Part shown: one piece after another, positions 36,989 to 46,031 of the stretch
Numbering within the stretch: position 1 is the stretch's first letter
Layout: each line of letters starts with the position of its first letter
Assembly: GCA_045635765.1 (NCBI GenBank)
Contig: JAZTWH010000026.1
Coordinates: 17,783-81,782 of the forward strand
DNA: 64,000 bases
DNA from: Eubacteriales bacterium
Lineage (GTDB): Bacteria > Bacillota > Clostridia > Oscillospirales > UBA644
Direction: 5' to 3'
Made by a program: the position numbers and the translations under genes
Notes under the pieces: generated by a model
The model's input: only the letters and a program-made list of their open reading frames with translations
Told to the model about the DNA's origin: nothing
The model's database searches: none

Positions 36989-37028
36989 ATTTCCTCCGAA
37001 CAACCTATGTTTCGGAGGAAATTTTTAT
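36989..37028 (+). terminator. Intrinsic terminator after lexA
   Basis: atttcctccgaa caacctatgt ttcggaggaaat forms a 12-bp stem, followed by TTTTAT. A second weak hairpin plus T6 lies at 37047..37069. Confidence 0.8.
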
Positions 37029-37087
37029 GCGAAATTCTTCCGTTCTGCATGCGAGTGCGTGCGTTTTTTGATTATAATATAAGGGAA

Positions 37088-37105
37088 TTCGTAATTATTT
37101 TACAA
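37088..37105 (+). promoter_or_regulatory. Candidate Rex-type operator upstream of the hydrogenase promoter
   Basis: TTCGTAATTATTTTACAA versus the remembered clostridial Rex consensus TTGTTAA-N4-TTAACAA gives 11 of 14 specified positions, with a GTAA...TTAC inverted core. Confidence 0.25.
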
Positions 37106-37113
37106 AATACCCC

Positions 37114-37142
37114 TTTACTTCCCTCGAAAACTATGCTATAAT
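37114..37142 (+). promoter_or_regulatory. Sigma-A-type extended -10 promoter of the hydrogenase operon
   Basis: TTTACT-17 bp-TATAAT with TGc immediately upstream of the -10. Confidence 0.6.
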
Positions 37143-37212
37143 AAATCGTAGTATTCTGTCCTTGGAGACAGTCTGCTATCAGCAAAAACAAACCAAGAGA
37201 GGAAGTAACATT

Positions 37213-37713
37213 ATGGGTAAGTCCAAAATCTCGAAGGCACCCTTCAAGGGAACGCCCGAACAGGAACGGGAATTGCGTGATATTATCGCATCCCTGAAAG
37301 ATCAGCCCGGTGCCTTGATGCCTGTTATGCAAAAGGCCCAGGACATTTACGGCTATCTCCCCATCGAAGTCCAGACCATTATTGCGGAAGGGTTGAACAT
37401 CCCCGTAGAGGAAGTTTACGGCGTTGCCACCTTCTACGCGCAGTTCGCCCTCAATCCCAAAGGAAAATACGTGATCGGCGTTTGCCTCGGCACCGCCTGC
37501 TACGTTAAGGATTCTCAGGCCATCTTCGATAAATGTTGCGAAGTCCTGAAAATTAAGAGTGGAGAAATTACCGACGACGGTCTGTTTTCCCTGGAAGCCA
37601 CCCGTTGCATCGGTTGCTGCGGTCTTGCTCCCGTTATGACCGTCGGTGACGACGTTTACGGAAAGATTACCGCCGCCGACGTCCCCGGCATTTTGGCAAA
37701 ATATACGAACTGA
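37213..37713 (+). CDS. hydC: NuoE-like [2Fe-2S] subunit of NAD(H)-linked [FeFe] hydrogenase
   Basis: 166 aa. Thioredoxin-like 2Fe-2S motif CLGTAC...CIGCCGLAP. First gene behind promoter 37114..37142. Confidence 0.85.
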   Translation: MGKSKISKAPFKGTPEQERELRDIIASLKDQPGALMPVMQKAQDIYGYLPIEVQTIIAEGLNIPVEEVYGVATFYAQFALNPKGKYVIGVCLGTACYVKDSQAIFDKCCEVLKIKSGEITDDGLFSLEATRCIGCCGLAPVMTVGDDVYGKITAADVPGILAKYTN

Positions 37714-37761: not shown

Positions 37762-38118
37762 ATGAAAATCAGCACCATTGCCGATCTTCTTGAAGCAGAG
37801 GTCCTTTGCGGGGAAGATCTTTTGGAAAATGAAGTCCACTCGGCTTGCGGGTCGGATATGATGAGCGACGTTCTTGCCTTCGTCAAGGATCAGGCCGTTC
37901 TTCTGACCGGGCTTGTGAATCTCCAGGTCGTCCGTACCGCCGAAATGATGGATATGCGTTGCATCGTCTTTGTCCGTGGCAAAAAGCCGCCTCAGGAAGT
38001 GATCGAAGCCGCCGTGGAAGCAGGAATCGTCATTCTTGCTACGACCGAACGGATGTATCCTGCCTGCGGCAAGCTGTATGCCACCGGCCTTGTAGGCGGG
38101 AGCGTGTCTGCATCATGA
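37762..38118 (+). CDS. DRTGG-domain-like small protein
   Basis: 118 aa. The pattern SDMMSDVL..AVLLTGLVNLQVVRTA..IVFVRGKKP..AGIVILATT resembles the DRTGG fold (from memory). Its stop overlaps the next start (ATGA). Confidence 0.5.
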   Translation: MKISTIADLLEAEVLCGEDLLENEVHSACGSDMMSDVLAFVKDQAVLLTGLVNLQVVRTAEMMDMRCIVFVRGKKPPQEVIEAAVEAGIVILATTERMYPACGKLYATGLVGGSVSAS

Positions 38119-38552
38119 GTGAGCCTGTGAAATTTCATTTCAACGTGGAGGGAGATAATTTTTCATCCGCCGGAGAAGCTTCCGTAAAGGTGAAAAAGAT
38201 GCTCCGTCAACTGTCTATGGACCCCGAAACCATCCGCCGTGTTTCCATCGCCATGTACGAAGGCGAGATCAACATGGTCATTCATGCCAATGGCGGAACC
38301 GCCGACGTGATTCTGTATCCCGACCGGATTCGGATCGTTCTGGCGGACACCGGCCCCGGAATCAAGGATGTCTCCCTGGCCATGCAGGAGGGATATTCTA
38401 CGGCGAAGGATAACGTCCGCGCCTTGGGATTCGGTGCCGGAATGGGGTTGCCGAACATGAAGCGTTATACCGACCGGATGGAGATTGAATCTGAGGTCGG
38501 AAAGGGAACCACCGTGACGATGGAAGTTTTTCTTCCCGGGGCAACTGCCTGA
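38115..38552 (+). CDS. Stand-alone GHKL (HATPase_c) protein, SpoIIAB-like serine-kinase type
   Basis: 145 aa. N-box EGEINMVIHA, G1 DTGPGI, G2 GFGAGMGLPNM. No DHp/His box. Confidence 0.7.
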   Translation: MSEPVKFHFNVEGDNFSSAGEASVKVKKMLRQLSMDPETIRRVSIAMYEGEINMVIHANGGTADVILYPDRIRIVLADTGPGIKDVSLAMQEGYSTAKDNVRALGFGAGMGLPNMKRYTDRMEIESEVGKGTTVTMEVFLPGATA

Positions 38553-38586: not shown

Positions 38587-39891
38587 ATGTCGAATTTACA
38601 TTCCGTCTCCCTTCTGAGAGACCGTTGTAAAGGATGTACCGCTTGTCTGAAGCGGTGCCCCACGGAAGCGATCCGGATTCGGGACGGCCATGCCGTGATT
38701 CGCTCCGAGCGCTGCATCGACTGCGGCGAATGTATCCGAGTTTGCCCTCATAAGGCAAAAAAGGCTACTTACGACGACTTTTCTGTCCTCGACCGCTTCC
38801 GTTGGAAGATCGCCCTGCCTGCCCCCGCCCTGTACGGACAGTTTGAAAACCTCGAAGACGTGGATTTCGTTCTGACCGGCCTTTTGGGGTGCGGCTTCGA
38901 CGATGTTTACGAGGTGGCCCGGGCTGCAGAACTGATCTCCGAGTATACTCGTTGTTATCTGCGGCGGACCGATATTCCCAAGCCGGTGATCTCTTCCGCC
39001 TGTCCCGCCATCGTGCGGATGATCTCTGCCCGCTTTCCGTCCCTGTGTAAGCACGTGTTGCCGATGCTCCCCCCGGTGGAGATGGCGGCCCGCCTTGCCC
39101 GGGAAGAGGCGAAAAAGAACCACCCAGAGCTATCTGACGGCGACATCGGCGTATTCTTCATTTCTCCCTGTCCCGCAAAGGTCAGCTACATGAAGAATCC
39201 TATCGGAATTGAGAAAAGTGCCATCGACGGGACCCTGTCCATGAGCGACGTCTACTTTCGCCTTGTCCCGGTGATGAACAAGATCACCACGCCCATTTCC
39301 TTGTCCAAGACCGGGCTGATCGGGATCAGCTGGGCCGGGTCCGGAGGAGAAGCCTCCGCCCTGTTTAACGACAAGTATCTTGCGGCGGACGGCATGGAAA
39401 ACGTCATCAAGGTTTTGGACGAGATCGACAACGGCAATATTTCCGGGTTGGAATTCGTGGAGCTGAACGCCTGCAGCGGAGGCTGTGTCGGCGGTGCTCT
39501 CACGGTTGTGAACCCTTATATCTCAAAGGCACGGCTTCAGTCCCTTCGTCGGTACTTGCCCGTGTCTCAGAATCGGATCGGGTCGGCGTTGAAGCCGGAT
39601 TCTACGGAAATCCCCTCCGATTATCTTTGGAACGTACCATTAAAATATACGCCTATTTTGCAGTTGGATGAGGATATTTCCGCCGCCATGCGGAAAATGT
39701 CGGAAATTCAGCGGCTTCGGGGCCAGTTCCCGGACCTGGACTGCGGTGCTTGTGGCGCTCCCACCTGTCTTGCCCTTGCGGAGGACGTGGCGTGCGGCGA
39801 GGCCCACGAAAACGACTGCATTATGAAGTGGAAGGACGTGCTTTTGGGGAAACATTCTCCGGAAGACCCGTCGGGAGAGGAGCCGAAATGA
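38587..39891 (+). CDS. [FeFe]-hydrogenase-like H-cluster protein of the putative sensory type (HydS-like, M2e/group D architecture)
   Basis: 434 aa. N-terminal 2x CxxCxxCxxxCP. H-domain motifs SSACP, SPCPAKVSY and ELNACSGGCVGG, compared with the catalytic TSCCP, MPCxxKxxE and ExMxCxxGCxxG. C-terminal extra motif is C-x2-C-x4-C-x16-C (DCGACGAPTCLALAEDVACGEAHENDC). Confidence 0.8.
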   Translation: MSNLHSVSLLRDRCKGCTACLKRCPTEAIRIRDGHAVIRSERCIDCGECIRVCPHKAKKATYDDFSVLDRFRWKIALPAPALYGQFENLEDVDFVLTGLLGCGFDDVYEVARAAELISEYTRCYLRRTDIPKPVISSACPAIVRMISARFPSLCKHVLPMLPPVEMAARLAREEAKKNHPELSDGDIGVFFISPCPAKVSYMKNPIGIEKSAIDGTLSMSDVYFRLVPVMNKITTPISLSKTGLIGISWAGSGGEASALFNDKYLAADGMENVIKVLDEIDNGNISGLEFVELNACSGGCVGGALTVVNPYISKARLQSLRRYLPVSQNRIGSALKPDSTEIPSDYLWNVPLKYTPILQLDEDISAAMRKMSEIQRLRGQFPDLDCGACGAPTCLALAEDVACGEAHENDCIMKWKDVLLGKHSPEDPSGEEPK

Positions 39892-40220
39892 CCGCAAAGG
39901 AATTGAGGACGTCCCTGAATCTCCAAGTCCTGTCGGAGCCCGAGCCGGACCGGCCGGTCACCGGCGGTTATGCAGGAGACCTTCTCAGTTGGGTCATGGG
40001 ACGAGCCCGGTGCGGAGATGCCTGGGTCACCATAATGACCAACTCCAACGTCATCGCCGTAGCGGCTTTGGCGGATGTTTCCTGCGTGATCGTGGCGGAG
40101 GATTCCGCCGTGGATTCCAATTTCGTGGAACTGGCGGCAGAGAAGGGGATCAACCTTTATCACAGTCTCACCAATACCTTCGACCTGTGCCGCGGCATCG
40201 GTTCTCTGTTGGGCGTATGA
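39888..40220 (+). CDS. DRTGG-domain-like small protein (second copy)
   Basis: 110 aa. GDLLSWVM..AWVTIMTNSNVIAVAAL..VIVAED resembles the 37762 protein. ATGA overlaps at both ends. Confidence 0.5.
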   Translation: MTAKELRTSLNLQVLSEPEPDRPVTGGYAGDLLSWVMGRARCGDAWVTIMTNSNVIAVAALADVSCVIVAEDSAVDSNFVELAAEKGINLYHSLTNTFDLCRGIGSLLGV

Positions 40221-40942
40221 GCCGGTACTATTACGATCTGCATATTCACTCCTGCCTTTCTCCCTGTGCGGAGGATGACATGACCCCTGCCAACATCGCC
40301 GGCATGGCCTCCCTGAAAGGGTTGACCCTTTTGGCCTTGACCGACCACAATTCCTGCCGGAACTGTCCTGCCTTTTTCGAGGCCTGCAACGCCTTTGGAA
40401 TCGTGCCGGTCCCCGGGATGGAACTGACAACGGCGGAGGATATTCATCTGGTGGTTTTATTCCCTACCCTGGAGCAGGCCATGGCCTTTGATGCACAGAT
40501 CCATCCTCGGATCGTCCCCGTCAAAAACCGGCCTGAGATTTTCGGAAATCAATGGGTGGTGGACCGGAACGACAATCTGCTTGAAACGGAGGAGACGTTG
40601 TTGATCAACGCCACCGACCTGGACGTGGATTCTGCCATACGGCTGGTCGATTCCTTCGGGGGAGCCCTGTATCCCGCCCACATTGACCGACCGTCCAACG
40701 GCATGATTTCCGTCTTGGGCTCCGTTCCCAAGGAGTACGGATTTTCCTGTGTGGAGTTTAACGACGTGACACAGCGAGAACGGATCCTTGCAGAGCAGGG
40801 ATTGAATTGCATTACCCTGTGCTCCTCCGATGCCCACGATCTGGGCAGTATCCATGAGGCGGAGCATTTTATCGATCTGGAGGATGAGCCCTATTCTTCC
40901 GACCTGGTTCGCCAGCGGTTGATAGAGTCCTTGAAACGATGA
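40217..40942 (+). CDS. PHP-domain phosphoesterase
   Basis: 241 aa. YYYDLHIHSCLSPC..LTDHNS..GMELTT..SSDAH metal-ligand pattern of the PHP family. Confidence 0.75.
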   Translation: MSRYYYDLHIHSCLSPCAEDDMTPANIAGMASLKGLTLLALTDHNSCRNCPAFFEACNAFGIVPVPGMELTTAEDIHLVVLFPTLEQAMAFDAQIHPRIVPVKNRPEIFGNQWVVDRNDNLLETEETLLINATDLDVDSAIRLVDSFGGALYPAHIDRPSNGMISVLGSVPKEYGFSCVEFNDVTQRERILAEQGLNCITLCSSDAHDLGSIHEAEHFIDLEDEPYSSDLVRQRLIESLKR

Positions 40943-41502
40943 AGGAATTATCCCTGAACATTCTTGACATAGCCCAAAACTCGGTTTCTGCCGGTGCGAA
41001 AAACATTCTCATCTCCCTGGAAGAGGATGATGCCGGGATTCTGACCCTGATCGTCACCGATGACGGCAAGGGGATGGAGCCTGAATTGGTCCGCACCGTC
41101 ACGGATCCCTTCTGTACCACCCGGACCACCCGGAACGTGGGCATGGGGATTCCCTTGCTCAAGCTTGCCAGTGAACAGACGGGAGGCACTCTGTCCGTCC
41201 GTTCGGTTCCCAGAACGGCGGATCCCGTTCATTGCGGGACGACCCTTCAAGCCACCTTTGACACTGCCAGCATCGACTTCACCCCCCTGGGGAACGTGGT
41301 GGATACCATGGTGGTGCTGATTCAAGGTCATCCGGAGATCGATTACTGCTTTACACATTCTTCCCCCTACGGTTCGGTCCGCCTGGATACCAAGGAGATC
41401 CGAAGCGTATTGGGCGATGAAATATCCCTCGGGGAGTTCGAGGTCCTGGAATGGATCCGAGGCTCTTTGGAGGAACAATACCAAGCGTTTAATAAAAAAT
41501 GA
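40939..41502 (+). CDS. Stand-alone GHKL (HATPase_c) ATPase
   Basis: 187 aa. N-box LNILDIAQNSVSA, G1 DDGKGM, G2 GMGIPLL. No sensor, DHp or receiver domain. ATGA overlap with the PHP gene. Confidence 0.7.
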   Translation: MKELSLNILDIAQNSVSAGAKNILISLEEDDAGILTLIVTDDGKGMEPELVRTVTDPFCTTRTTRNVGMGIPLLKLASEQTGGTLSVRSVPRTADPVHCGTTLQATFDTASIDFTPLGNVVDTMVVLIQGHPEIDYCFTHSSPYGSVRLDTKEIRSVLGDEISLGEFEVLEWIRGSLEEQYQAFNKK

Positions 41503-41528
41503 ATCATAAAAATGGAGGCGTAACATTC

Positions 41529-41903
41529 ATGAAAACTCTCGCGGAACTTGAAGCCATCAGAGAACGGATGAGAGGAAAAGTCGCGGTTCGCGAAGCCAGC
41601 GACAATGCCACCCGTATCGTTGTCGGTATGGCCACCTGCGGCATTGCTGCCGGTGCCCGTCCTGTCCTCAACACCATCGCTGAGGAAGTTTCAAAACAGG
41701 GCTTGTCCGAAACTGTCACCGTCACTCAGACCGGCTGCATCGGCCTTTGCCAGTATGAGCCCATCGTCGAAGTGTACCAGCAGGGCAAGGACAAGGTCAC
41801 TTATGTCAAGATGGATTCCGATAAGGCCAAAAAGGTTATCGAACAGCACATCAAGGGCGGTAATGTCGTGGCCGATTATACCATTGCAAACAATGCGAAA
41901 TAA
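41529..41903 (+). CDS. Thioredoxin-like [2Fe-2S] ferredoxin (small hydrogenase-associated subunit)
   Basis: 124 aa from MKTLAEL (RBS GGAGG). Cys pattern ATCGIAAG ... GCIGLCQYEP. Confidence 0.75.
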   Translation: MKTLAELEAIRERMRGKVAVREASDNATRIVVGMATCGIAAGARPVLNTIAEEVSKQGLSETVTVTQTGCIGLCQYEPIVEVYQQGKDKVTYVKMDSDKAKKVIEQHIKGGNVVADYTIANNAK

Positions 41904-41918
41904 GGAGGAAGGAAATCA

Positions 41919-43742
41919 ATGATTCGCTCTCACGTTTTGATTTGCGGCGGCACCGGTTGTACATCCTCCGGCAGTGCGAAGCTGCACACCAAACTCGAAG
42001 AAGAAATTAAGGCAAAGGGCTTGGAAGACGAAGTAAAAGTCGTTCAGACCGGTTGTTTCGGTCTTTGTGCTCTTGGTCCCATTATGATCGTCTATCCCGA
42101 CGGTACCTTCTACAGCATGGTGAAGGAAGAGGATCTCCCCGAGATCGTAGAGGAACACCTGCTGAAGGGGCGTCCCGTAGACCGCTTGGTTTATAAGGAT
42201 AAGGCCGAAGAAACCTCGCAAAATGAAGAGGAAACCTATTCTCTGAACGATACCGCTTTCTACAAGAAGCAGATGCGTGTAGCACTGCGTAACTGCGGTG
42301 TCATTGACCCCGAAATTATTGACGAATACATCGCCATGGACGGTTACAAGGCTCTGGGGAAGGTTTTGACCGAAATGACCCCCGAGGACGTCATTCAGAC
42401 CATGTTGGATTCCGGCCTTCGGGGCCGCGGCGGCGCCGGCTTCCCCACCGGGATGAAGTGGAAATTTGCCCGCGCTTCCCAGTCCGATAAAAAATACGTC
42501 TGCTGTAACGCCGACGAAGGGGACCCCGGTGCATTCATGGACCGTTCCGTTCTGGAAGGTGACCCCCATTCCGTCATCGAGGCTATGGCCATTGCCGCTT
42601 ATGCCATCGGTGCAGATCAGGGTTACGTGTACATCCGTGCGGAATACCCCATTGCCGTAAAGCGTCTTTCCATTGCCATTCAGCAGGCTCGCGAATACGG
42701 TCTGTTGGGCGAAGATATTTTCGGTACGGGCTTTAACTTCAACCTGGACATCCGTCTGGGTGCAGGTGCCTTCGTCTGCGGTGAAGAAACCGCGTTGATG
42801 ACCTCCATCGAAGGCCGTCGCGGAGAACCCCGTCCCCGTCCTCCCTTCCCCGCCGTCAAGGGTCTGTTTGCCCAGCCCACCGTGCTGAATAACGTAGAAA
42901 CCTACGCCAACATTCCTCAGATCATTCTGAAGGGCGTGGATTGGTTCCGTTCCATCGGTACCGAAAAGAGCAAGGGTACGAAGGTATTCGCTCTGGGAGG
43001 TAAGATTACCAACACCGGTCTGGTTGAAGTTCCCATGGGTACTCCCCTGCGGACCATCATTGAAGAGATCGGCGGCGGTATCCCCAACGGCAAGAAGTTC
43101 AAGGCGGCCCAGACCGGCGGTCCTTCCGGCGGCTGTATCCCCGCAGAACATCTGGACGTTCCCATCGATTACGATAACCTGCTCGCCATCGGCTCCATGA
43201 TGGGCTCCGGCGGACTTATCGTTATGGACGAAGATAACTGTATGGTCGACATCGCCAAATTCTTCCTGGAATTTACCGTAGATGAATCCTGCGGGAAATG
43301 TACTCCCTGCCGTATCGGTACCCGTCGTCTGCTGGAAATGCTGACCAAGATCACCGACGGCAAGGCTACTCTGGAAGATCTGGACAAGATGGAAGAGCTG
43401 TGCCATTACATTAAAGAAAACTCCCTGTGCGGTCTGGGTCAGACGGCTCCCAACCCCGTTCTGTCTACCCTGAAGTTCTTCCGGGATGAATACGTGGCTC
43501 ACATCGTGGATAAGACCTGTCCTGCGGGCGTTTGCAAGAACCTTCTCAAGTACAGCGTCATCTCCGATAAGTGCTTCGGCTGCGGTATGTGTATGCGTGC
43601 TTGCCCTGCCAACGCCATCTACGTCACCGATTACACGGCTCCCGGCAAGAAGAAGCCTGCCGTTGCCATCGATACCGACAAGTGTGTTAAGTGCGGTGCT
43701 TGTATCGGTACTTGTAAGTTCAGCGCCATCATTAAGAAATAA
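41919..43742 (+). CDS. hydB: NuoF-like flavoprotein subunit of bifurcating-type [FeFe] hydrogenase
   Basis: 607 aa. N-terminal 2Fe-2S domain, FMN/NADH site GRGGAGFPTGMKW, ESCGKCTPCR cluster, and C-terminal 2x[4Fe-4S] (CFGCGMCMRACP, CVKCGACIGTC). Confidence 0.9.
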   Translation: MIRSHVLICGGTGCTSSGSAKLHTKLEEEIKAKGLEDEVKVVQTGCFGLCALGPIMIVYPDGTFYSMVKEEDLPEIVEEHLLKGRPVDRLVYKDKAEETSQNEEETYSLNDTAFYKKQMRVALRNCGVIDPEIIDEYIAMDGYKALGKVLTEMTPEDVIQTMLDSGLRGRGGAGFPTGMKWKFARASQSDKKYVCCNADEGDPGAFMDRSVLEGDPHSVIEAMAIAAYAIGADQGYVYIRAEYPIAVKRLSIAIQQAREYGLLGEDIFGTGFNFNLDIRLGAGAFVCGEETALMTSIEGRRGEPRPRPPFPAVKGLFAQPTVLNNVETYANIPQIILKGVDWFRSIGTEKSKGTKVFALGGKITNTGLVEVPMGTPLRTIIEEIGGGIPNGKKFKAAQTGGPSGGCIPAEHLDVPIDYDNLLAIGSMMGSGGLIVMDEDNCMVDIAKFFLEFTVDESCGKCTPCRIGTRRLLEMLTKITDGKATLEDLDKMEELCHYIKENSLCGLGQTAPNPVLSTLKFFRDEYVAHIVDKTCPAGVCKNLLKYSVISDKCFGCGMCMRACPANAIYVTDYTAPGKKKPAVAIDTDKCVKCGACIGTCKFSAIIKK

Positions 43743-43756
43743 GGAGGATTGTGGAA

Positions 43757-45496
43757 ATGGCTGATGTAAATCTGAAAATTAACGGCATCCCCGTAACGGT
43801 TCCTGCCGGAACGACCATTCTCGATGCCGCCAATAAAGCCGGTGTCCGTATTCCGACCCTGTGCTTTTTGAAAGATATCAATGCGATCGGTGCTTGCCGT
43901 ATCTGTATCTGCGAAGTCAAGGGTGCCCGTGCTCTTGCCGCCGCTTGCGTATATCCCGTAACCGAAGGAATGGAAGTTTTCACCGACACTCCCAAGGTCA
44001 TCGAATCCCGCAAGACCACCCTCGAACTGATCCTTTCCAATCACGATATGAAGTGCCTTTCCTGCCCCCGCAGCCAAAACTGTGAGCTGCAGAAGCTGGC
44101 CCTTGAATACGGTGTGGATTGCGACCGCTTCCAGGGTGCCAAGACTCCCTGCGAATTGGAAAACACCAATCCCTACCTGATTCGCGATAACGGAAAATGT
44201 ATCCTCTGCCGCCGTTGCTCCGCCGTCTGCCGTGCCAATCAGGGCGTAGGCGTCATCGGTGCCAACGAACGGGGATTCAATACCCACATTGGCTGTGCCT
44301 TTGATCTGGATCTGAAGGACGTTGCTTGTATCGGTTGCGGTCAGTGCACCGTCGTTTGCCCCACCGCCGCTCTCACCGAAAAGGATGATACTGCTGAGGT
44401 GTTCCGGGCAATTGCCGATCCCTCCAAGCACGTGGTCGTTGCTCCTGCTCCTTCGGTCCGCGTTCAGATCGCCGAAGAATTCGGAGAACCCATCGGCACC
44501 AACGCTGAGGGTAAGCTGGTTGCTTCTCTCCGCCGTTTGGGCTTCGATTCCGTGGTTGACGTTGACGTTGCCGCCGACGTTACCATCATCGAAGAAGGTA
44601 CGGAGTTTATCAATCGGGTTCAGAAGGGCGGAGCTCTGCCCTTGATTACTTCCTGCTCTCCCGGTTGGGTCAAGTACTGCGAACATTACTATCCCGAATT
44701 TATTCCCAATCTCTCTTCCTGCAAATCCCCCCAGGGAATGTACGGTGCTTTGATGAAGTCCTACTATGCGGAGAAGATGGGCTGGGATCCCAAGGACGTT
44801 TTCGTCGTCAGCATTATGCCCTGTACTGCCAAGAAGTTTGAACGGACGCGGGAAGGCTACAAGGTGGACGGACTCAATGATATTGACGCCGCTCTGACCA
44901 CCCGCGAATTGGCTAAGATGATCCGCAAGGTCGGTATTATCTGGGAAAAACTCCCCGATGAACAGTTTGATCCCCTCTTCGGCATTGCCACCGGTGCCGG
45001 CCACATCTTCGGTGCCTCCGGCGGTGTTATGGAAGCGGCTCTGCGTACGGTCGTCGAAACCCTGGAAGGCAAGGAATTGGCTTCCGTCGACTTCACCGAC
45101 GTTCGCGGAATGGAAGGCGTGAAGGAAGCCATCTACAACGTTGCCGGGATGGAAGTGAAGGTTGCCGTTGTCAGCGGTACTGCCAACGCAGGCAGATTGC
45201 TCGATAAGATCAAGGCCGGCGAAGCCAACTATCACTTCATCGAAGTCATGGCTTGCCCCGGCGGCTGTGTCAACGGCGGCGGCCAGCCTATTCACGACGC
45301 CTACACCCGTGCCAACGTGGATATTCGCGGGCTGCGTGCCAAGGCTCTGTACAATCAGGATGCCGCTTGTGCCGTCCGTAAGTCTCATGAGTCCCCCATC
45401 GTCAAGGAATTGTACGCCAATTACCTGGGCGAAGCCGGCGGCCATAAGGCTCACCACCTGTTGCACACTTCCTACGAACCCCGTAAGAAGTATTGA
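43757..45496 (+). CDS. hydA: [FeFe] hydrogenase catalytic subunit (multimeric NAD(H)/ferredoxin-linked type)
   Basis: 579 aa. N-terminal 2Fe-2S, His-ligated cluster and two 4Fe-4S motifs. H-cluster motifs TSCSPGW, MPCTAKKFE and EVMACPGGCVNGGGQP. ATG 43757 lies 8 nt after AAGGAGGA. Confidence 0.9.
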   Translation: MADVNLKINGIPVTVPAGTTILDAANKAGVRIPTLCFLKDINAIGACRICICEVKGARALAAACVYPVTEGMEVFTDTPKVIESRKTTLELILSNHDMKCLSCPRSQNCELQKLALEYGVDCDRFQGAKTPCELENTNPYLIRDNGKCILCRRCSAVCRANQGVGVIGANERGFNTHIGCAFDLDLKDVACIGCGQCTVVCPTAALTEKDDTAEVFRAIADPSKHVVVAPAPSVRVQIAEEFGEPIGTNAEGKLVASLRRLGFDSVVDVDVAADVTIIEEGTEFINRVQKGGALPLITSCSPGWVKYCEHYYPEFIPNLSSCKSPQGMYGALMKSYYAEKMGWDPKDVFVVSIMPCTAKKFERTREGYKVDGLNDIDAALTTRELAKMIRKVGIIWEKLPDEQFDPLFGIATGAGHIFGASGGVMEAALRTVVETLEGKELASVDFTDVRGMEGVKEAIYNVAGMEVKVAVVSGTANAGRLLDKIKAGEANYHFIEVMACPGGCVNGGGQPIHDAYTRANVDIRGLRAKALYNQDAACAVRKSHESPIVKELYANYLGEAGGHKAHHLLHTSYEPRKKY

Positions 45497-45511: not shown

Positions 45512-45547
45512 AAAAACGGTCCCTCCCAAATGGGGGACCGTTTTTTG
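45512..45547 (+). terminator. Intrinsic terminator after hydA
   Basis: acggtccctc ccaaat gggggaccgt forms a ~10-bp stem, followed by TTTTT. Confidence 0.85.
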
Positions 45548-45608: not shown

Positions 45609-45637
45609 TTGATTTTTTTTTCATTTTGTACTATAAT
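45609..45637 (+). promoter_or_regulatory. Sigma-A-type promoter for the DtxR-family gene
   Basis: TTGATT-17 bp-TATAAT. Confidence 0.55.
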
Positions 45638-45665: not shown

Positions 45666-46031
45666 ATGCGATTGCAAGAATCGGGGGAAATGTACCTGGA
45701 AACCATCCTGCAACTGTCCCGGCAGCAAAGCCGCGTCCGTTCCATCGATGTGGTGGACTCCATGGGCTTCAGTAAGCCCAGCGTCAGCCGTGCCGTGGGA
45801 TTGCTGAAGCAGGGGGGATACCTGAACGTATTGGAAGACGGATCCTTGATCCTGACCGATGCGGGACGGATGGTGGCCGAAAAAACCTTTGAACGCCACA
45901 AGGTCCTCACGGCGTTCTTCGTTGCCCTTGGGGTGGACGAAGAGACGGCCGCCTCCGATGCGTGCAAGATCGAGCACGATGTCAGCGACACGACCTTTGA
46001 GGCTATCAAACGCCATACCGAAGGCCTGTAA
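45666..46031 (+). CDS. DtxR/MntR-family metal-dependent transcriptional regulator
   Basis: 121 aa. MYLETILQL, HTH SKPSVSRAVGLLKQGGYL and metal-site region FERHKVLTAFF..ACKIEHDVS. Confidence 0.8.
   Translation: MRLQESGEMYLETILQLSRQQSRVRSIDVVDSMGFSKPSVSRAVGLLKQGGYLNVLEDGSLILTDAGRMVAEKTFERHKVLTAFFVALGVDEETAASDACKIEHDVSDTTFEAIKRHTEGL

What the first reader, a model, noticed from the sequence alone, without database searches (positions are those of the whole stretch)
38587..39891. Second H-cluster protein with catalytic-tuning residues replaced and an extra C-terminal C-x2-C-x4-C-x16-C cluster motif
The three H-cluster motifs are recognisable but altered.
- L1 reads SSACP instead of TSCCP, so the Cys equivalent to the CpI proton-relay Cys299 is Ala while the cluster-ligand Cys is kept.
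- L2 reads SPCPAKVSY instead of MPCxxKxxE, so Met becomes Ser and the pathway Glu becomes Tyr.
- L3 reads ELNACSGGCVGG instead of ExMxCxxGCxxG, so Met becomes Asn.
- Two N-terminal ferredoxin-type motifs and a C-terminal DCGACGAPTC...C(16) motif complete the protein, and there is no PAS domain.
This matches my recollection of the M2e/group D putative sensory class (the Thermoanaerobacter mathranii HydS type), whose physiological role is unknown.
Basis: partly seen in the sequence, partly recalled or inferred. Interest (0 to 1): 0.6.

Follow-up and report, generated by a model that had tools for sequence, protein, structure and literature searches.

The report
Putative hydrogen-sensing [FeFe] hydrogenase, group D
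This gene encodes an ordinary member of an already described but functionally unsolved class of slow, probably hydrogen-sensing [FeFe] hydrogenases. It sits with kinase-, phosphatase- and DRTGG-type neighbours inside the operon of the cell's main NADH/ferredoxin-linked hydrogenase.

Summary

- **The gene.** ORF 38587-39891 (+) encodes a 434-aa protein with two ferredoxin-type 4-Cys motifs, an H-domain and a C-terminal C-x2-C-x4-C-x16-C motif (Pfam PF04060). It has no PAS domain.
- **H-cluster motifs.** All four H-cluster cysteines are kept. The proton-relay Cys is Ala (SSACP), Met353 is Ser and Met497 is Asn.
- **Group D membership.** It is 49% identical over 417 residues to a Thermoanaerobacter HydS. 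That protein carries all 23 residues published for TamHydS at the published numbers. The query is 23% identical to the HydA in the same operon.
- **Group D signatures.** It carries the group-D-specific alternative proton path (S252/E255/D268/E292). It fails NCBI's score cut-offs for the group A and B models.
- **Synteny.** The block DRTGG, SpoIIAB-like ATPase, HydS, DRTGG, PHP phosphoesterase is conserved in about 97% of 72-73 related loci and in Thermoanaerobacter. It always lies next to hydABC.
- **Fusions.** Natural fusions of HydS with the DRTGG or ATPase neighbour recur in independent assemblies.

This is a new member of a known kind. Only the signalling-module evidence adds anything to what is published. 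The H2-sensor role remains an inference.

The parts
38587..39891 (+). hydS: group D (M2e) putative sensory [FeFe] hydrogenase, 434 aa
   Evidence: ORF and translation. Pfam Fer4 x2 + Fe_hyd_lg_C + PF04060. 49% identical to Thermoanaerobacter HydS. AF2 model pLDDT 94.0 with [FeFe]-hydrogenase fold.
38626..38748 (+). Two ferredoxin-type CxxCxxCxxxCP motifs (C14/17/20/24 and C43/46/49/53) for the two N-terminal [4Fe-4S] clusters
   Evidence: Cysteines conserved in 107-123 of 123 family representatives.
38992..39006 (+). L1 motif SSACP: Ala138 at the CpI Cys299 (proton relay) position, Cys139 is the cluster ligand
   Evidence: Aligned to TSCCP of DdH. Position 138 is A/S/F/T in the family and C139 is kept in 122/123. 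TamHydS has A137 here.
39163..39189 (+). L2 motif SPCPAKVSY: Ser193 at the Met353 position, Cys195 ligand, Lys198, Tyr201
   Evidence: Position 193 is T (56) or S (50) of 123, the group D trait described in PMC8163306.
39340..39462 (+). Group D alternative proton-transfer residues S252, E255, D268, E292 (= TamHydS S249, E252, D265, E289)
   Evidence: Same spacing as published. E255 is conserved in 94/123, D268 in 84/123 and E292 in 113/123.
39460..39495 (+). L3 motif ELNACSGGCVGG: Asn294 at the Met497 position, Cys296 and Cys300 ligands
   Evidence: Position 294 is variable (R/N/L/S/Q/M), and C296 and C300 are each kept in 121/123.
39730..39822 (+). C-terminal [4Fe-4S] domain, C386-x2-C389-x4-C394-x16-C411 with flanking D385 and D410 and E399-D400 (Pfam PF04060)
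   Evidence: The Cys and Asp residues are conserved in the family. They correspond to TamHydS D378/C379...D403/C404 and E392/D393.
37762..38118 (+). DRTGG-domain protein 1 (118 aa), first gene of the five-gene module
   Evidence: Pfam DRTGG E 8e-8. Profile hit to the DRTGG structures 2ioj and 3l2b. Found upstream of HydS, together with the ATPase gene, in 71/72 loci.
38115..38552 (+). SpoIIAB/RsbW-like GHKL ATPase, a probable Ser kinase (145 aa)
   Evidence: Pfam HATPase_c_2. TIGR01925 spIIAB 63.6 bits, below cut-off. Best solved relative is anti-sigma F factor 1til, E 1.4e-7. The ATP-binding motifs are >=95% conserved. Its start overlaps the DRTGG1 stop by 4 nt.
39888..40220 (+). DRTGG-domain protein 2 (110 aa); its start overlaps the hydS stop (ATGA)
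   Evidence: This domain is fused to the C-terminus of HydS in several lineages.
40217..40942 (+). PHP-domain phosphoesterase (241 aa), probable phosphatase
   Evidence: Pfam PHP E 2e-9. The HxH, DHN, E..H, AH and DAH metal-ligand motifs are conserved in 73 orthologs. Follows DRTGG2 in 71/73 loci.
40939..41502 (+). Second GHKL ATPase (187 aa) lying between the module and hydD
   Evidence: Pfam HATPase_c E 1e-12. Present in Thermoanaerobacter at the same place.
37213..37713 (+). hydC (NuoE-like 2Fe-2S subunit), first gene of the operon. The probable start is ATG 37213; the mechanical ORF start is TTG 37162.
   Evidence: Pfam 2Fe-2S_thioredx E 1.5e-50. RBS before 37213. Promoter-like site at 37114-37142.
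41499..45496 (+). hydD-like small 2Fe-2S protein (41499-41903), hydB (41919-43742) and hydA (43751-45496): the NADH-dependent, bifurcating-type group A hydrogenase
   Evidence: Pfam. HydA passes NCBIfam NF040763 'NADH-dependent [FeFe] hydrogenase, group A6' at 859 vs 765 bits. Terminator-like site at 45520-45536.

Best explanation
The gene encodes a HydS-type group D (M2e) [FeFe] hydrogenase.

**Shown from sequence.**
- It keeps all ligands for an H-cluster, two N-terminal [4Fe-4S] clusters and one C-terminal [4Fe-4S] cluster.
- It lacks the group A proton relay (Cys299 is Ala).
- It has the group D Glu/Glu/Ser/Asp proton path.

**Taken from work on the homologue TamHydS.** Such an enzyme binds a normal H-cluster, turns over H2 about a thousand times more slowly than group A enzymes, has a lower Km for H2, tolerates CO, and changes secondary structure when exposed to H2.

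**Inferred for this locus.**
- HydS acts as the H2-binding input of a five-protein signalling module: DRTGG1, SpoIIAB-like Ser kinase/ATPase, HydS, DRTGG2 and PHP phosphatase.
- The module is co-translated with the bifurcating hydrogenase HydABC(D).
- H2-dependent reduction of the H-cluster changes HydS conformation.
- The change is passed by direct contact to the bound DRTGG and kinase proteins.
- A phosphorylation/dephosphorylation or partner-switching step then sets the amount or activity of HydABC according to H2 pressure.

Membership of group D is near certain (about 0.93). The sensor mechanism is the likeliest reading but is untested (about 0.5).
For: **Identity.**
- Motifs and domain layout.
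- 49% identity, E 5e-144, to Thermoanaerobacter HydS, which matches all 23 published TamHydS residue numbers, against 23% to the operon's own HydA.
- Group D proton-path residues present and conserved in 123 family representatives.
- Below the group A and B model cut-offs.
- Confident hydrogenase fold, pLDDT 94.

**Module.**
- DRTGG1 + ATPase lie upstream in 71/72 related loci, DRTGG2 + PHP downstream in 71/73, and HydB + HydA in 38/40.
- The block stays intact when hydC moves.
- It is the same in Thermoanaerobacter at 49% identity.
- 4-nt ATGA overlaps link DRTGG1/ATPase, HydS/DRTGG2, DRTGG2/PHP, PHP/ATPase2 and ATPase2/HydD.
- Nine of the ten longer family representatives examined are fusions of HydS with a DRTGG domain (N- or C-terminal) or with the ATPase. 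They are seen repeatedly in independent assemblies, including an isolate genome.
- The ATPase is closest to anti-sigma F kinase SpoIIAB and keeps its ATP-binding motifs. PHP keeps its metal ligands.

**Biochemistry of the class.** PMC8163306, PMC10407848, PMC11803613 and PMC13104023.
Against: - No experiment on this protein or on any group D enzyme in vivo shows sensing. Cell 2024 still lists group D as functionally undefined.
- The cassette holds no DNA-binding protein, sigma factor, STAS domain or receiver domain, so the output is unknown.
- No phospho-acceptor is identified.
- TamHydS is a real, if slow, bidirectional catalyst.
- I could not obtain a usable structural model of the DRTGG proteins.
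- I could not obtain neighbourhoods of the most distant family members.
Confidence: 0.62

Rival explanations
1. It is a working, low-rate hydrogenase (a redox valve or H2-uptake enzyme) that exchanges electrons with ferredoxin through its N-terminal clusters. The kinase and phosphatase neighbours regulate something else.
For: - TamHydS evolves and oxidises H2 in both directions, and its alternative proton path matters for activity.
- The two N-terminal clusters are the usual electron relay, and one is reduced by H2.
- All catalytic cysteines are conserved.
Against: - Its H2 evolution rate is about a thousand times lower than in group A enzymes, and it needs an overpotential.
- A highly active HydA is encoded in the same operon.
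- Tight synteny, overlapping genes and repeated fusions with DRTGG and ATPase domains are hard to explain for a plain metabolic enzyme.
Confidence: 0.15
2. It is a regulatory or accessory subunit that senses cellular redox state (ferredoxin or NAD(H)) rather than H2. Alternatively it docks on HydABC to gate it, with the H-cluster serving mainly a structural or redox-buffer role.
For: - The gene lies between hydC and hydD and is co-transcribed and translationally coupled down to hydD.
- The low-potential C-terminal cluster does not respond to H2 but responds to strong reductants.
- DRTGG domains occur in the adenine-nucleotide-sensing regulatory insert of CBS-pyrophosphatase (PDB 3l2b/3l31).
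Against: - Purified HydABC complexes solved by cryo-EM contain only HydA, B and C.
- TamHydS has a lower Km for H2 than group A and C enzymes, and H2 induces a structural change.
- The H-cluster pocket and a dedicated proton path are conserved across the family.
Confidence: 0.15
3. It is a degenerate relic that no longer receives the [2Fe] subcluster and acts only as an iron-sulfur protein, as its public annotation ('4Fe-4S binding protein') implies.
For: - The proton-relay Cys and both pocket Met residues are lost.
- Public records name cluster mates only '4Fe-4S binding protein'.
- No hydE/F/G genes are among the large ORFs of this window.
Against: - All four H-cluster Cys, Lys198 and the Glu pair of the alternative proton path are under strong conservation across hundreds of 50%-identity clusters.
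- TamHydS, with the same substitutions, incorporates the cofactor and is active.
- The operon's HydA needs the maturases anyway, so they must be encoded elsewhere.
Confidence: 0.04

Closest known systems
TamHydS, Thermoanaerobacter mathranii group D (M2e) [FeFe] hydrogenase (Land et al. 2020, PMC8163306)
   Same: - Same domain order and length (434 vs 435 aa).
- Ala at the Cys299 position and Ser at the Met353 position.
- The same S/E/D/E alternative proton path.
- The same Cx2Cx4Cx16C motif with flanking Asp residues and the E-D pair.
- R30/R32 are conserved.
- The same ten-gene neighbourhood in the congeneric ortholog.
   Different: - Only 49% identical.
- The Met497 position is Asn rather than Leu.
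- TamHydS E122/K126 correspond to Cys123/Arg127, and S384 to Ala391.
- There is an extra Cys403 inside the C-terminal motif, seen in 7/123 representatives.
- hydC lies before the module rather than after it.
- The source is a mesophilic gut-type Clostridia MAG rather than a thermophile.
TmHydS / R. albus HydS / T. saccharolyticum HfsB, group C (M2f) putative sensory [FeFe] hydrogenases
   Same: Two N-terminal clusters, an H-domain without the proton-relay Cys, the C-terminal four-Cys cluster, low activity, and linkage to hydrogenase operons and to Ser/Thr kinases or phosphatases.
   Different: - Group C carries a C-terminal PAS domain, and this protein has none.
- TmHydS has Gly at the Met353 position.
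- Group C lacks the E252-type proton path.
- Signal hand-over here must go through separate (or, in some lineages, fused) DRTGG and ATPase proteins.
Regulatory [NiFe] hydrogenase HoxBC with histidine kinase HoxJ (Ralstonia eutropha H2 sensor)
   Same: The logic is the same. A slow, inhibitor-tolerant hydrogenase with high H2 affinity is physically coupled to a kinase that controls expression of the metabolic hydrogenases.
   Different: - It is an unrelated metal centre and protein family.
- HoxJ is a PAS-containing histidine kinase with a response regulator, HoxA.
- Here the kinase is SpoIIAB-like, there is no receiver or DNA-binding partner in the cassette, and no experiment exists.
SpoIIAB-SpoIIAA-SpoIIE / RsbW-RsbV-RsbU partner-switching modules
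   Same: A small GHKL Ser kinase of the SpoIIAB type (best PDB hit 1til; TIGR01925 hit) is encoded with a dedicated phosphatase and small single-domain partner proteins.
   Different: - There is no STAS-domain antagonist and no sigma factor.
- The partners are DRTGG domains.
- The phosphatase is PHP-type rather than PP2C.
- The kinase scores below the SpoIIAB model cut-off (63.6 vs 135 bits).
- Whether any phosphorylation occurs is unknown.

Membership tests
[FeFe] hydrogenase group D (M2e subclass) | H-domain with the four H-cluster cysteine ligands | tested here: met
   C139, C195, C296 and C300 align to the DdH ligands. Pfam Fe_hyd_lg_C E 1.1e-26. Conserved in 121-122 of 123 representatives.
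[FeFe] hydrogenase group D (M2e subclass) | [quoted passage not shown] | tested here: met
   CxxCxxCxxxCP at aa 14-25 and 43-54. Fer4 family hits.
[FeFe] hydrogenase group D (M2e subclass) | C-terminal Cx2Cx4Cx16C cluster motif | tested here: met
   C386/C389/C394/C411. PF04060 E 1.5e-10. Definition in PMC8163306.
[FeFe] hydrogenase group D (M2e subclass) | No PAS domain (distinguishes D from C) | tested here: met
   No PAS hit at E <= 0.01. Only 23 residues follow C411.
[FeFe] hydrogenase group D (M2e subclass) | Cys299 (CpI) not conserved; Met353 replaced by Ser/Thr | tested here: met
   Ala138 and Ser193. In the family, position 193 is T/S in 106/123. Stated as an M2e trait.
[FeFe] hydrogenase group D (M2e subclass) | Group-D-exclusive proton pathway E252-E289-S249-D265 (TamHydS numbering) | tested here: met
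   E255, E292, S252 and D268 with identical spacing. Pathway definition in PMC10407848.
[FeFe] hydrogenase group D (M2e subclass) | Closer in sequence to TamHydS than to catalytic groups; clusters with it in a phylogeny | tested here: inconclusive
   - 49% identity to a Thermoanaerobacter ortholog that carries all 23 published TamHydS residues, against 23% to HydA.
- About 20% identity to solved group A/B structures.
[FeFe] hydrogenase group D (M2e subclass) | Encoded next to a trimeric/tetrameric bifurcating group A hydrogenase | tested here: met
   Same operon as hydC, hydD-like, hydB and hydA. HydB + HydA follow in 38/40 related loci and in Thermoanaerobacter.
[FeFe] hydrogenase group D (M2e subclass) | Binds an H-cluster, with slow turnover, low Km for H2 and CO tolerance | not testable with these tools
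   Known only for TamHydS. Testing it here needs expression, maturation, FTIR/EPR and assays.
[FeFe] hydrogenase group C (M2f, PAS-linked sensory) | C-terminal PAS domain after the four-Cys cluster | tested here: not met
   No PAS domain. None of the ten longest family representatives has one either; nine of them carry DRTGG or HATPase fusions instead.
[FeFe] hydrogenase group A (prototypical/bifurcating catalytic) | TSCCP / MPCxxKxxE / ExMxCxxGC motifs and a score above curated family cut-offs | tested here: not met
   The motifs read SSACP / SPCPAKVSY / ELNACSGGC. TIGR02512 scores 71.7 vs 405.95 bits and NF040763 scores 68 vs 765 bits.
[FeFe] hydrogenase group B (TSCCCP type) | Score above the TIGR04105 cut-off; three adjacent Cys in L1 | tested here: not met
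   120.4 vs 450 bits. L1 has a single Cys. The TSCCCP definition is from abstracts listed.

The most novel reading that the evidence does not exclude
Group D hydrogenases may signal without a PAS domain because they form a fixed complex with two DRTGG-domain proteins, a SpoIIAB-like Ser kinase and a PHP phosphatase. This would be a previously undescribed kind of partner-switching module in which DRTGG domains take the place of STAS antagonists. The invariant Asp32/Ser35/Thr49 shared by both paralogs are candidate acceptor or contact residues. The module would tune the bifurcating hydrogenase to H2 pressure, possibly post-translationally, since the cassette has no DNA-binding protein.

Probability: 0.35. 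Interest if true: 0.6.

Novelty: new member of a known kind. Interest (0 to 1): 0.27.

Why it matters
The protein itself adds nothing new. Group D enzymes have been classified since 2010 and studied biochemically since 2019-2020. This family has at least 419 clusters at 50% identity (E <= 1e-30) and matches in at least 587 species genomes.

- **Annotation.** Public records call this protein and its close relatives only '4Fe-4S binding protein', so H2-sensing capacity in gut Clostridia is systematically under-annotated.
- **Mechanism lead.** The physiological role and the signalling route of group D are still open. The strictly conserved and sometimes fused DRTGG/kinase/PHP partners give testable candidates for that route. 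These hydrogenases help set H2 and redox balance in gut and fermentative communities.

Tried and rejected
- **Exact TamHydS sequence.** I found the accession (WP_013150113) in a supplement but could not fetch the sequence. No 50%-cluster representative matched its numbering. A second homology search seeded with P0125 found Thermoanaerobacter WP_012269443.1, which matches all 23 published positions, and I used it as a proxy.
- **Neighbourhoods of the most distant family members.**
  - An alignment of distant representatives had no stretch conserved enough to scan.
  - A metagenome scan with P0258 returned only ferredoxin-domain matches.
  - Generality beyond Oscillospirales-like genomes and Thermoanaerobacter therefore rests on the fusions only.
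- **Fold of the DRTGG proteins (to test a STAS-like role).** The two-row alignment gave pLDDT 49, which is unusable, so I ran no fold search.
- **afdb50 fold library.** Unavailable.
- **Rex operator upstream of the operon.** No match near 37000-37200; only two 3-mismatch hits elsewhere, which is fewer than chance.
- **DtxR-type regulator downstream (45666-46031).** Considered as the module's output and rejected. It has its own promoter-like site, lies after a terminator-like site, and is absent from all 80 related loci.
- **LexA upstream.** Also not syntenic; present in 1 of 80 loci.
- **Literature linking DRTGG, PHP or anti-sigma-type kinases to [FeFe] hydrogenases.** I found nothing specific. 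The only mentions are generic remarks that kinases, phosphatases and PAS sensors lie upstream of bifurcating hydrogenases.
- **TSCSPGW in HydA as a possible error or novelty.** Rejected. It is conserved in orthologs and is the Ser ligand already described in A. woodii HydA.
Full report
**1. The observation**

The ORF at 38587-39891 on the + strand is real. It starts with ATG seven bases after an AGGAGG site and encodes 434 residues.
- The two ferredoxin-type motifs at aa 14-25 and 43-54.
- SSACP at aa 136-140.
- SPCPAKVSY at aa 193-201.
- ELNACSGGCVGG at aa 292-303.
- C386-x2-C389-x4-C394-x16-C411.

Pfam finds an [FeFe]-hydrogenase H-domain (E 1.1e-26), two Fer4 units and the PF04060 'putative Fe-S cluster' domain over aa 382-412. 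It finds no PAS domain.

The register of the motif assignment is confirmed. phmmer against the solved D. desulfuricans enzyme places SSACP on TSCCP, SPCPAK on MPCIAK and ELNACSGGC on EYMACPGGC. One PDB entry with TSACP at this motif, apparently a C178A-type variant, shows that the first Cys of TSCCP is the proton-relay residue.

One label is off. The Glu of MPCxxKxxE is not among the group A proton-path residues named in the papers I read, which list C299, E279, E282 and R286. Tyr201 is a real substitution but is not a lost 'pathway Glu'.

**2. What it is**

The published definition of the M2e subclass, or group D, has these parts (PMC8163306):
- Two N-terminal [4Fe-4S] motifs.
- An H-domain lacking Cys299.
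- A C-terminal Cx2Cx4Cx16C motif.
- No PAS domain.
- Ser or Thr at the Met353 position.
- A poorly conserved Met497 position.
- Location next to a group A hydrogenase.

The protein meets each point.

A later paper defined a proton path exclusive to group D: E252, E289, S249 and D265 in TamHydS (PMC10407848). The query has S252, E255, D268 and E292 with exactly the same spacing.

The 2026 paper on the C-terminal cluster lists conserved D378/C379, D403/C404, E392/D393 and R30/R32. The query has D385/C386, D410/C411, E399/D400 and R30/R32.

In an alignment with 123 representatives of 50%-identity clusters, conservation was as follows:

| Position (query) | Role | Residues in 123 representatives |
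|---|---|---|
| C139, C195, C296, C300 | H-cluster ligands | kept in 121-122 |
| 138 | CpI Cys299 equivalent | A/S/F/T |
| 193 | CpI Met353 equivalent | T or S in 106 |
| 294 | CpI Met497 equivalent | variable |
| E255 | alternative proton path | present in 94 |

I could not fetch TamHydS itself (WP_013150113). A search seeded with a representative found Thermoanaerobacter WP_012269443.1. This protein carries all 23 residues cited for TamHydS at exactly the published numbers.

The identity comparisons are:
- 49% to that protein over 417 residues, E 5e-144.
- 23% to the HydA of its own operon.
- About 20% to the closest solved structures, all of which are catalytic [FeFe] hydrogenases such as DdH, CbA5H and CpI.

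It scores far below NCBI's cut-offs for the group A, A6 and B1 models, whereas the operon's HydA passes the A6 model. An AlphaFold2 model built on 59 family sequences is confident (pLDDT 94.0, pTM 0.91). The fold search returned only catalytic [FeFe] hydrogenases, with no group C or D structure among the hits listed.

**3. Surroundings**

The gene is the fourth of ten co-oriented genes between a promoter-like site (37114-37142, with an extended -10) and a terminator-like hairpin (45520-45536). In order, the genes are:
1. hydC (NuoE-like).
2. DRTGG protein 1.
3. A SpoIIAB/RsbW-like GHKL ATPase.
4. hydS.
5. DRTGG protein 2.
6. A PHP phosphoesterase.
7. A second GHKL ATPase.
8. A small 2Fe-2S hydD-like protein.
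9. hydB (NuoF-like).
10. hydA.

Five junctions are 4-nt ATGA overlaps, including hydS/DRTGG2.

A genome-collection scan found at least 587 species with a relative. In the 80 closest loci (54-68% identity, mostly Oscillospiraceae, Acutalibacteraceae and Ruminococcaceae MAGs from animal guts):
- 31 show the identical ten-gene order.
- 10 have hydC moved behind PHP while the block DRTGG1-ATPase-HydS-DRTGG2-PHP stays intact.
- Where enough flank exists, the upstream pair is present in 71/72 loci, the downstream pair in 71/73, and HydB + HydA in 38/40.
- Genes outside the cassette (LexA, the DtxR-type regulator) are not syntenic.

The Thermoanaerobacter locus has the same cassette in the 'hydC after PHP' version. 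The module is therefore conserved across orders. [quoted passage not shown]

**4. Fusions**

I examined ten family representatives of 516-607 aa, and none has a PAS domain. Nine are HydS fused to its neighbours:

| Fusion | Representatives |
|---|---|
| DRTGG at the C-terminus | P0137, P0139, P0244, P0250, and by motif P0166 and P0253 |
| DRTGG at the N-terminus | P0140, P0219 |
| The ATPase at the N-terminus | P0155 |

They are not assembly artefacts, because they recur:
- The 607-aa ATPase-HydS form recurs at essentially full length (607-609 aa) in six members of its cluster, from several sources, on contigs up to 347 kb.
- The 534-aa DRTGG-HydS form includes a protein from an isolate genome.
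- The 533-aa HydS-DRTGG form has 80 cluster members.

Such fusions, together with the overlapping genes, argue for a physical complex.

The two DRTGG paralogs share invariant D32, S35, V37, T49, A60 and A84. The small ATPase keeps its N-box, G1 and G2 motifs, and PHP keeps its metal ligands, across about 70 orthologs. I found no paper that connects DRTGG domains with hydrogenases. Older papers only note that kinases, phosphatases or PAS sensors lie upstream of bifurcating hydrogenases.

**5. How it most likely works**

*Shown.* The ligand set for an H-cluster and three [4Fe-4S] clusters is present, along with a group D proton path and membership of a conserved module in the hydABC operon.

*Transferred from TamHydS.* These properties are reported for the homologue:
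- H-cluster incorporation.
- About thousand-fold lower H2 evolution than group A.
- Km for H2 near 0.1 mM.
- CO and O2 tolerance.
- An H2-induced secondary-structure change.

*Inferred.* HydS reports H2 pressure by a conformational change to the bound DRTGG and kinase proteins. PHP reverses the kinase's action. The output sets HydABC level or activity. Because the cassette lacks any DNA-binding, sigma, STAS or receiver component, the output step is unknown and may be post-translational.

Rivals are a slow metabolic hydrogenase, a redox rather than H2 sensor or HydABC accessory subunit, and a cofactor-less relic. Each is weighed in the Rival explanations section.

**6. Comparison and novelty**

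The protein works like, and is a member of, group D (TamHydS type). It is not group C because it has no PAS domain. It is not group A or B because the motifs and model scores fail.

Differences from TamHydS are minor:
- Asn rather than Leu at the Met497 position.
- Cys123/Arg127 where TamHydS has E122/K126.
- Ala391 for S384.
- An extra Cys403.
- hydC placed first in the operon.

The exact protein is already in NCBI on an 84-kb contig. Its cluster mates are named only '4Fe-4S binding protein'.

This is a new member of a known kind. Interest is low to moderate, and it comes from the module and fusion evidence, which bears on the open question of group D signalling.

**7. Limits**

- No tree with curated references was built.
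- No group C sequence was available.
- Neighbourhoods of the most distant relatives could not be retrieved.
- No usable DRTGG structure model was obtained.
- There is no experimental evidence for sensing in any group D enzyme.

Noticed in passing
window 44648-44668 (HydA aa 300-306): The catalytic HydA of the operon reads TSCSPGW rather than TSCCPGW, so a Ser sits at the [4Fe-4S]H ligand position. The same motif occurs in 42 of 43 orthologs in related loci and in A. woodii HydA1 (PDB 7q4v). Katsyv et al. 2023 describe this Ser301 ligand and found no effect on the H-cluster spectra. It is a known natural variant, not an error.
   Followed up: yes
proteins P0155, P0140, P0219, P0137, P0139, P0244, P0250, P0166, P0253 (other genomes): Natural fusions of group D HydS with the neighbouring DRTGG domain (at either end) or with the SpoIIAB-like ATPase. 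They recur in independent assemblies and in one isolate genome (MCB6993385.1). None of the long forms has a PAS domain.
   Followed up: partly
window 37762-38118 and 39888-40220: The two DRTGG proteins are only 21% identical to each other. They nevertheless share invariant D32, S35, V37, T49, A60 and A84 (DRTGG1 numbering) across 27 DRTGG1-type sequences, the two DRTGG2 sequences (this window and Thermoanaerobacter) and the Thermoanaerobacter DRTGG1. Ser35 and Thr49 are candidate phospho-acceptor or contact residues.
   Followed up: partly
window 38115-38118, 39888-39891, 40217-40220, 40939-40942, 41499-41502: Five consecutive gene junctions in the operon are 4-nt ATGA start/stop overlaps. This suggests translational coupling from the signalling genes into hydD.
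   Followed up: yes
window 45666-46031: A DtxR/iron-dependent-repressor family regulator (121 aa) lies directly after hydA. It follows a terminator-like hairpin and has its own promoter-like site (45609-45637). It is absent from all 80 related loci, so it is probably unrelated to the hydrogenase cassette.
   Followed up: yes
window 37162-37713: The mechanical ORF for hydC starts at TTG 37162, but an ATG at 37213 has a proper ribosome-binding site (GAGAGGAAG) and is the likelier start. The promoter-like site at 37114-37142 would leave a leader of about 70 nt.
   Followed up: partly
window 38587-39891 (public records): The exact protein is in NCBI on an 84,190-bp contig. Members of its 90% cluster are annotated only as '4Fe-4S binding protein [Clostridia bacterium]'. 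The hydrogenase nature of this family is therefore missed by routine annotation.
   Followed up: yes
window 40939-41502: The second GHKL ATPase (187 aa) has a conserved C-terminal half of about 80 residues with no family match. A gene with the same domain content lies between hydC and hydD in Thermoanaerobacter. Its role is unknown.
   Followed up: no
window 39793-39795 (HydS Cys403): An extra cysteine sits inside the x16 spacer of the C-terminal cluster motif. Only 7 of 123 family representatives have it, and most have Arg, Lys or Leu there.
   Followed up: partly
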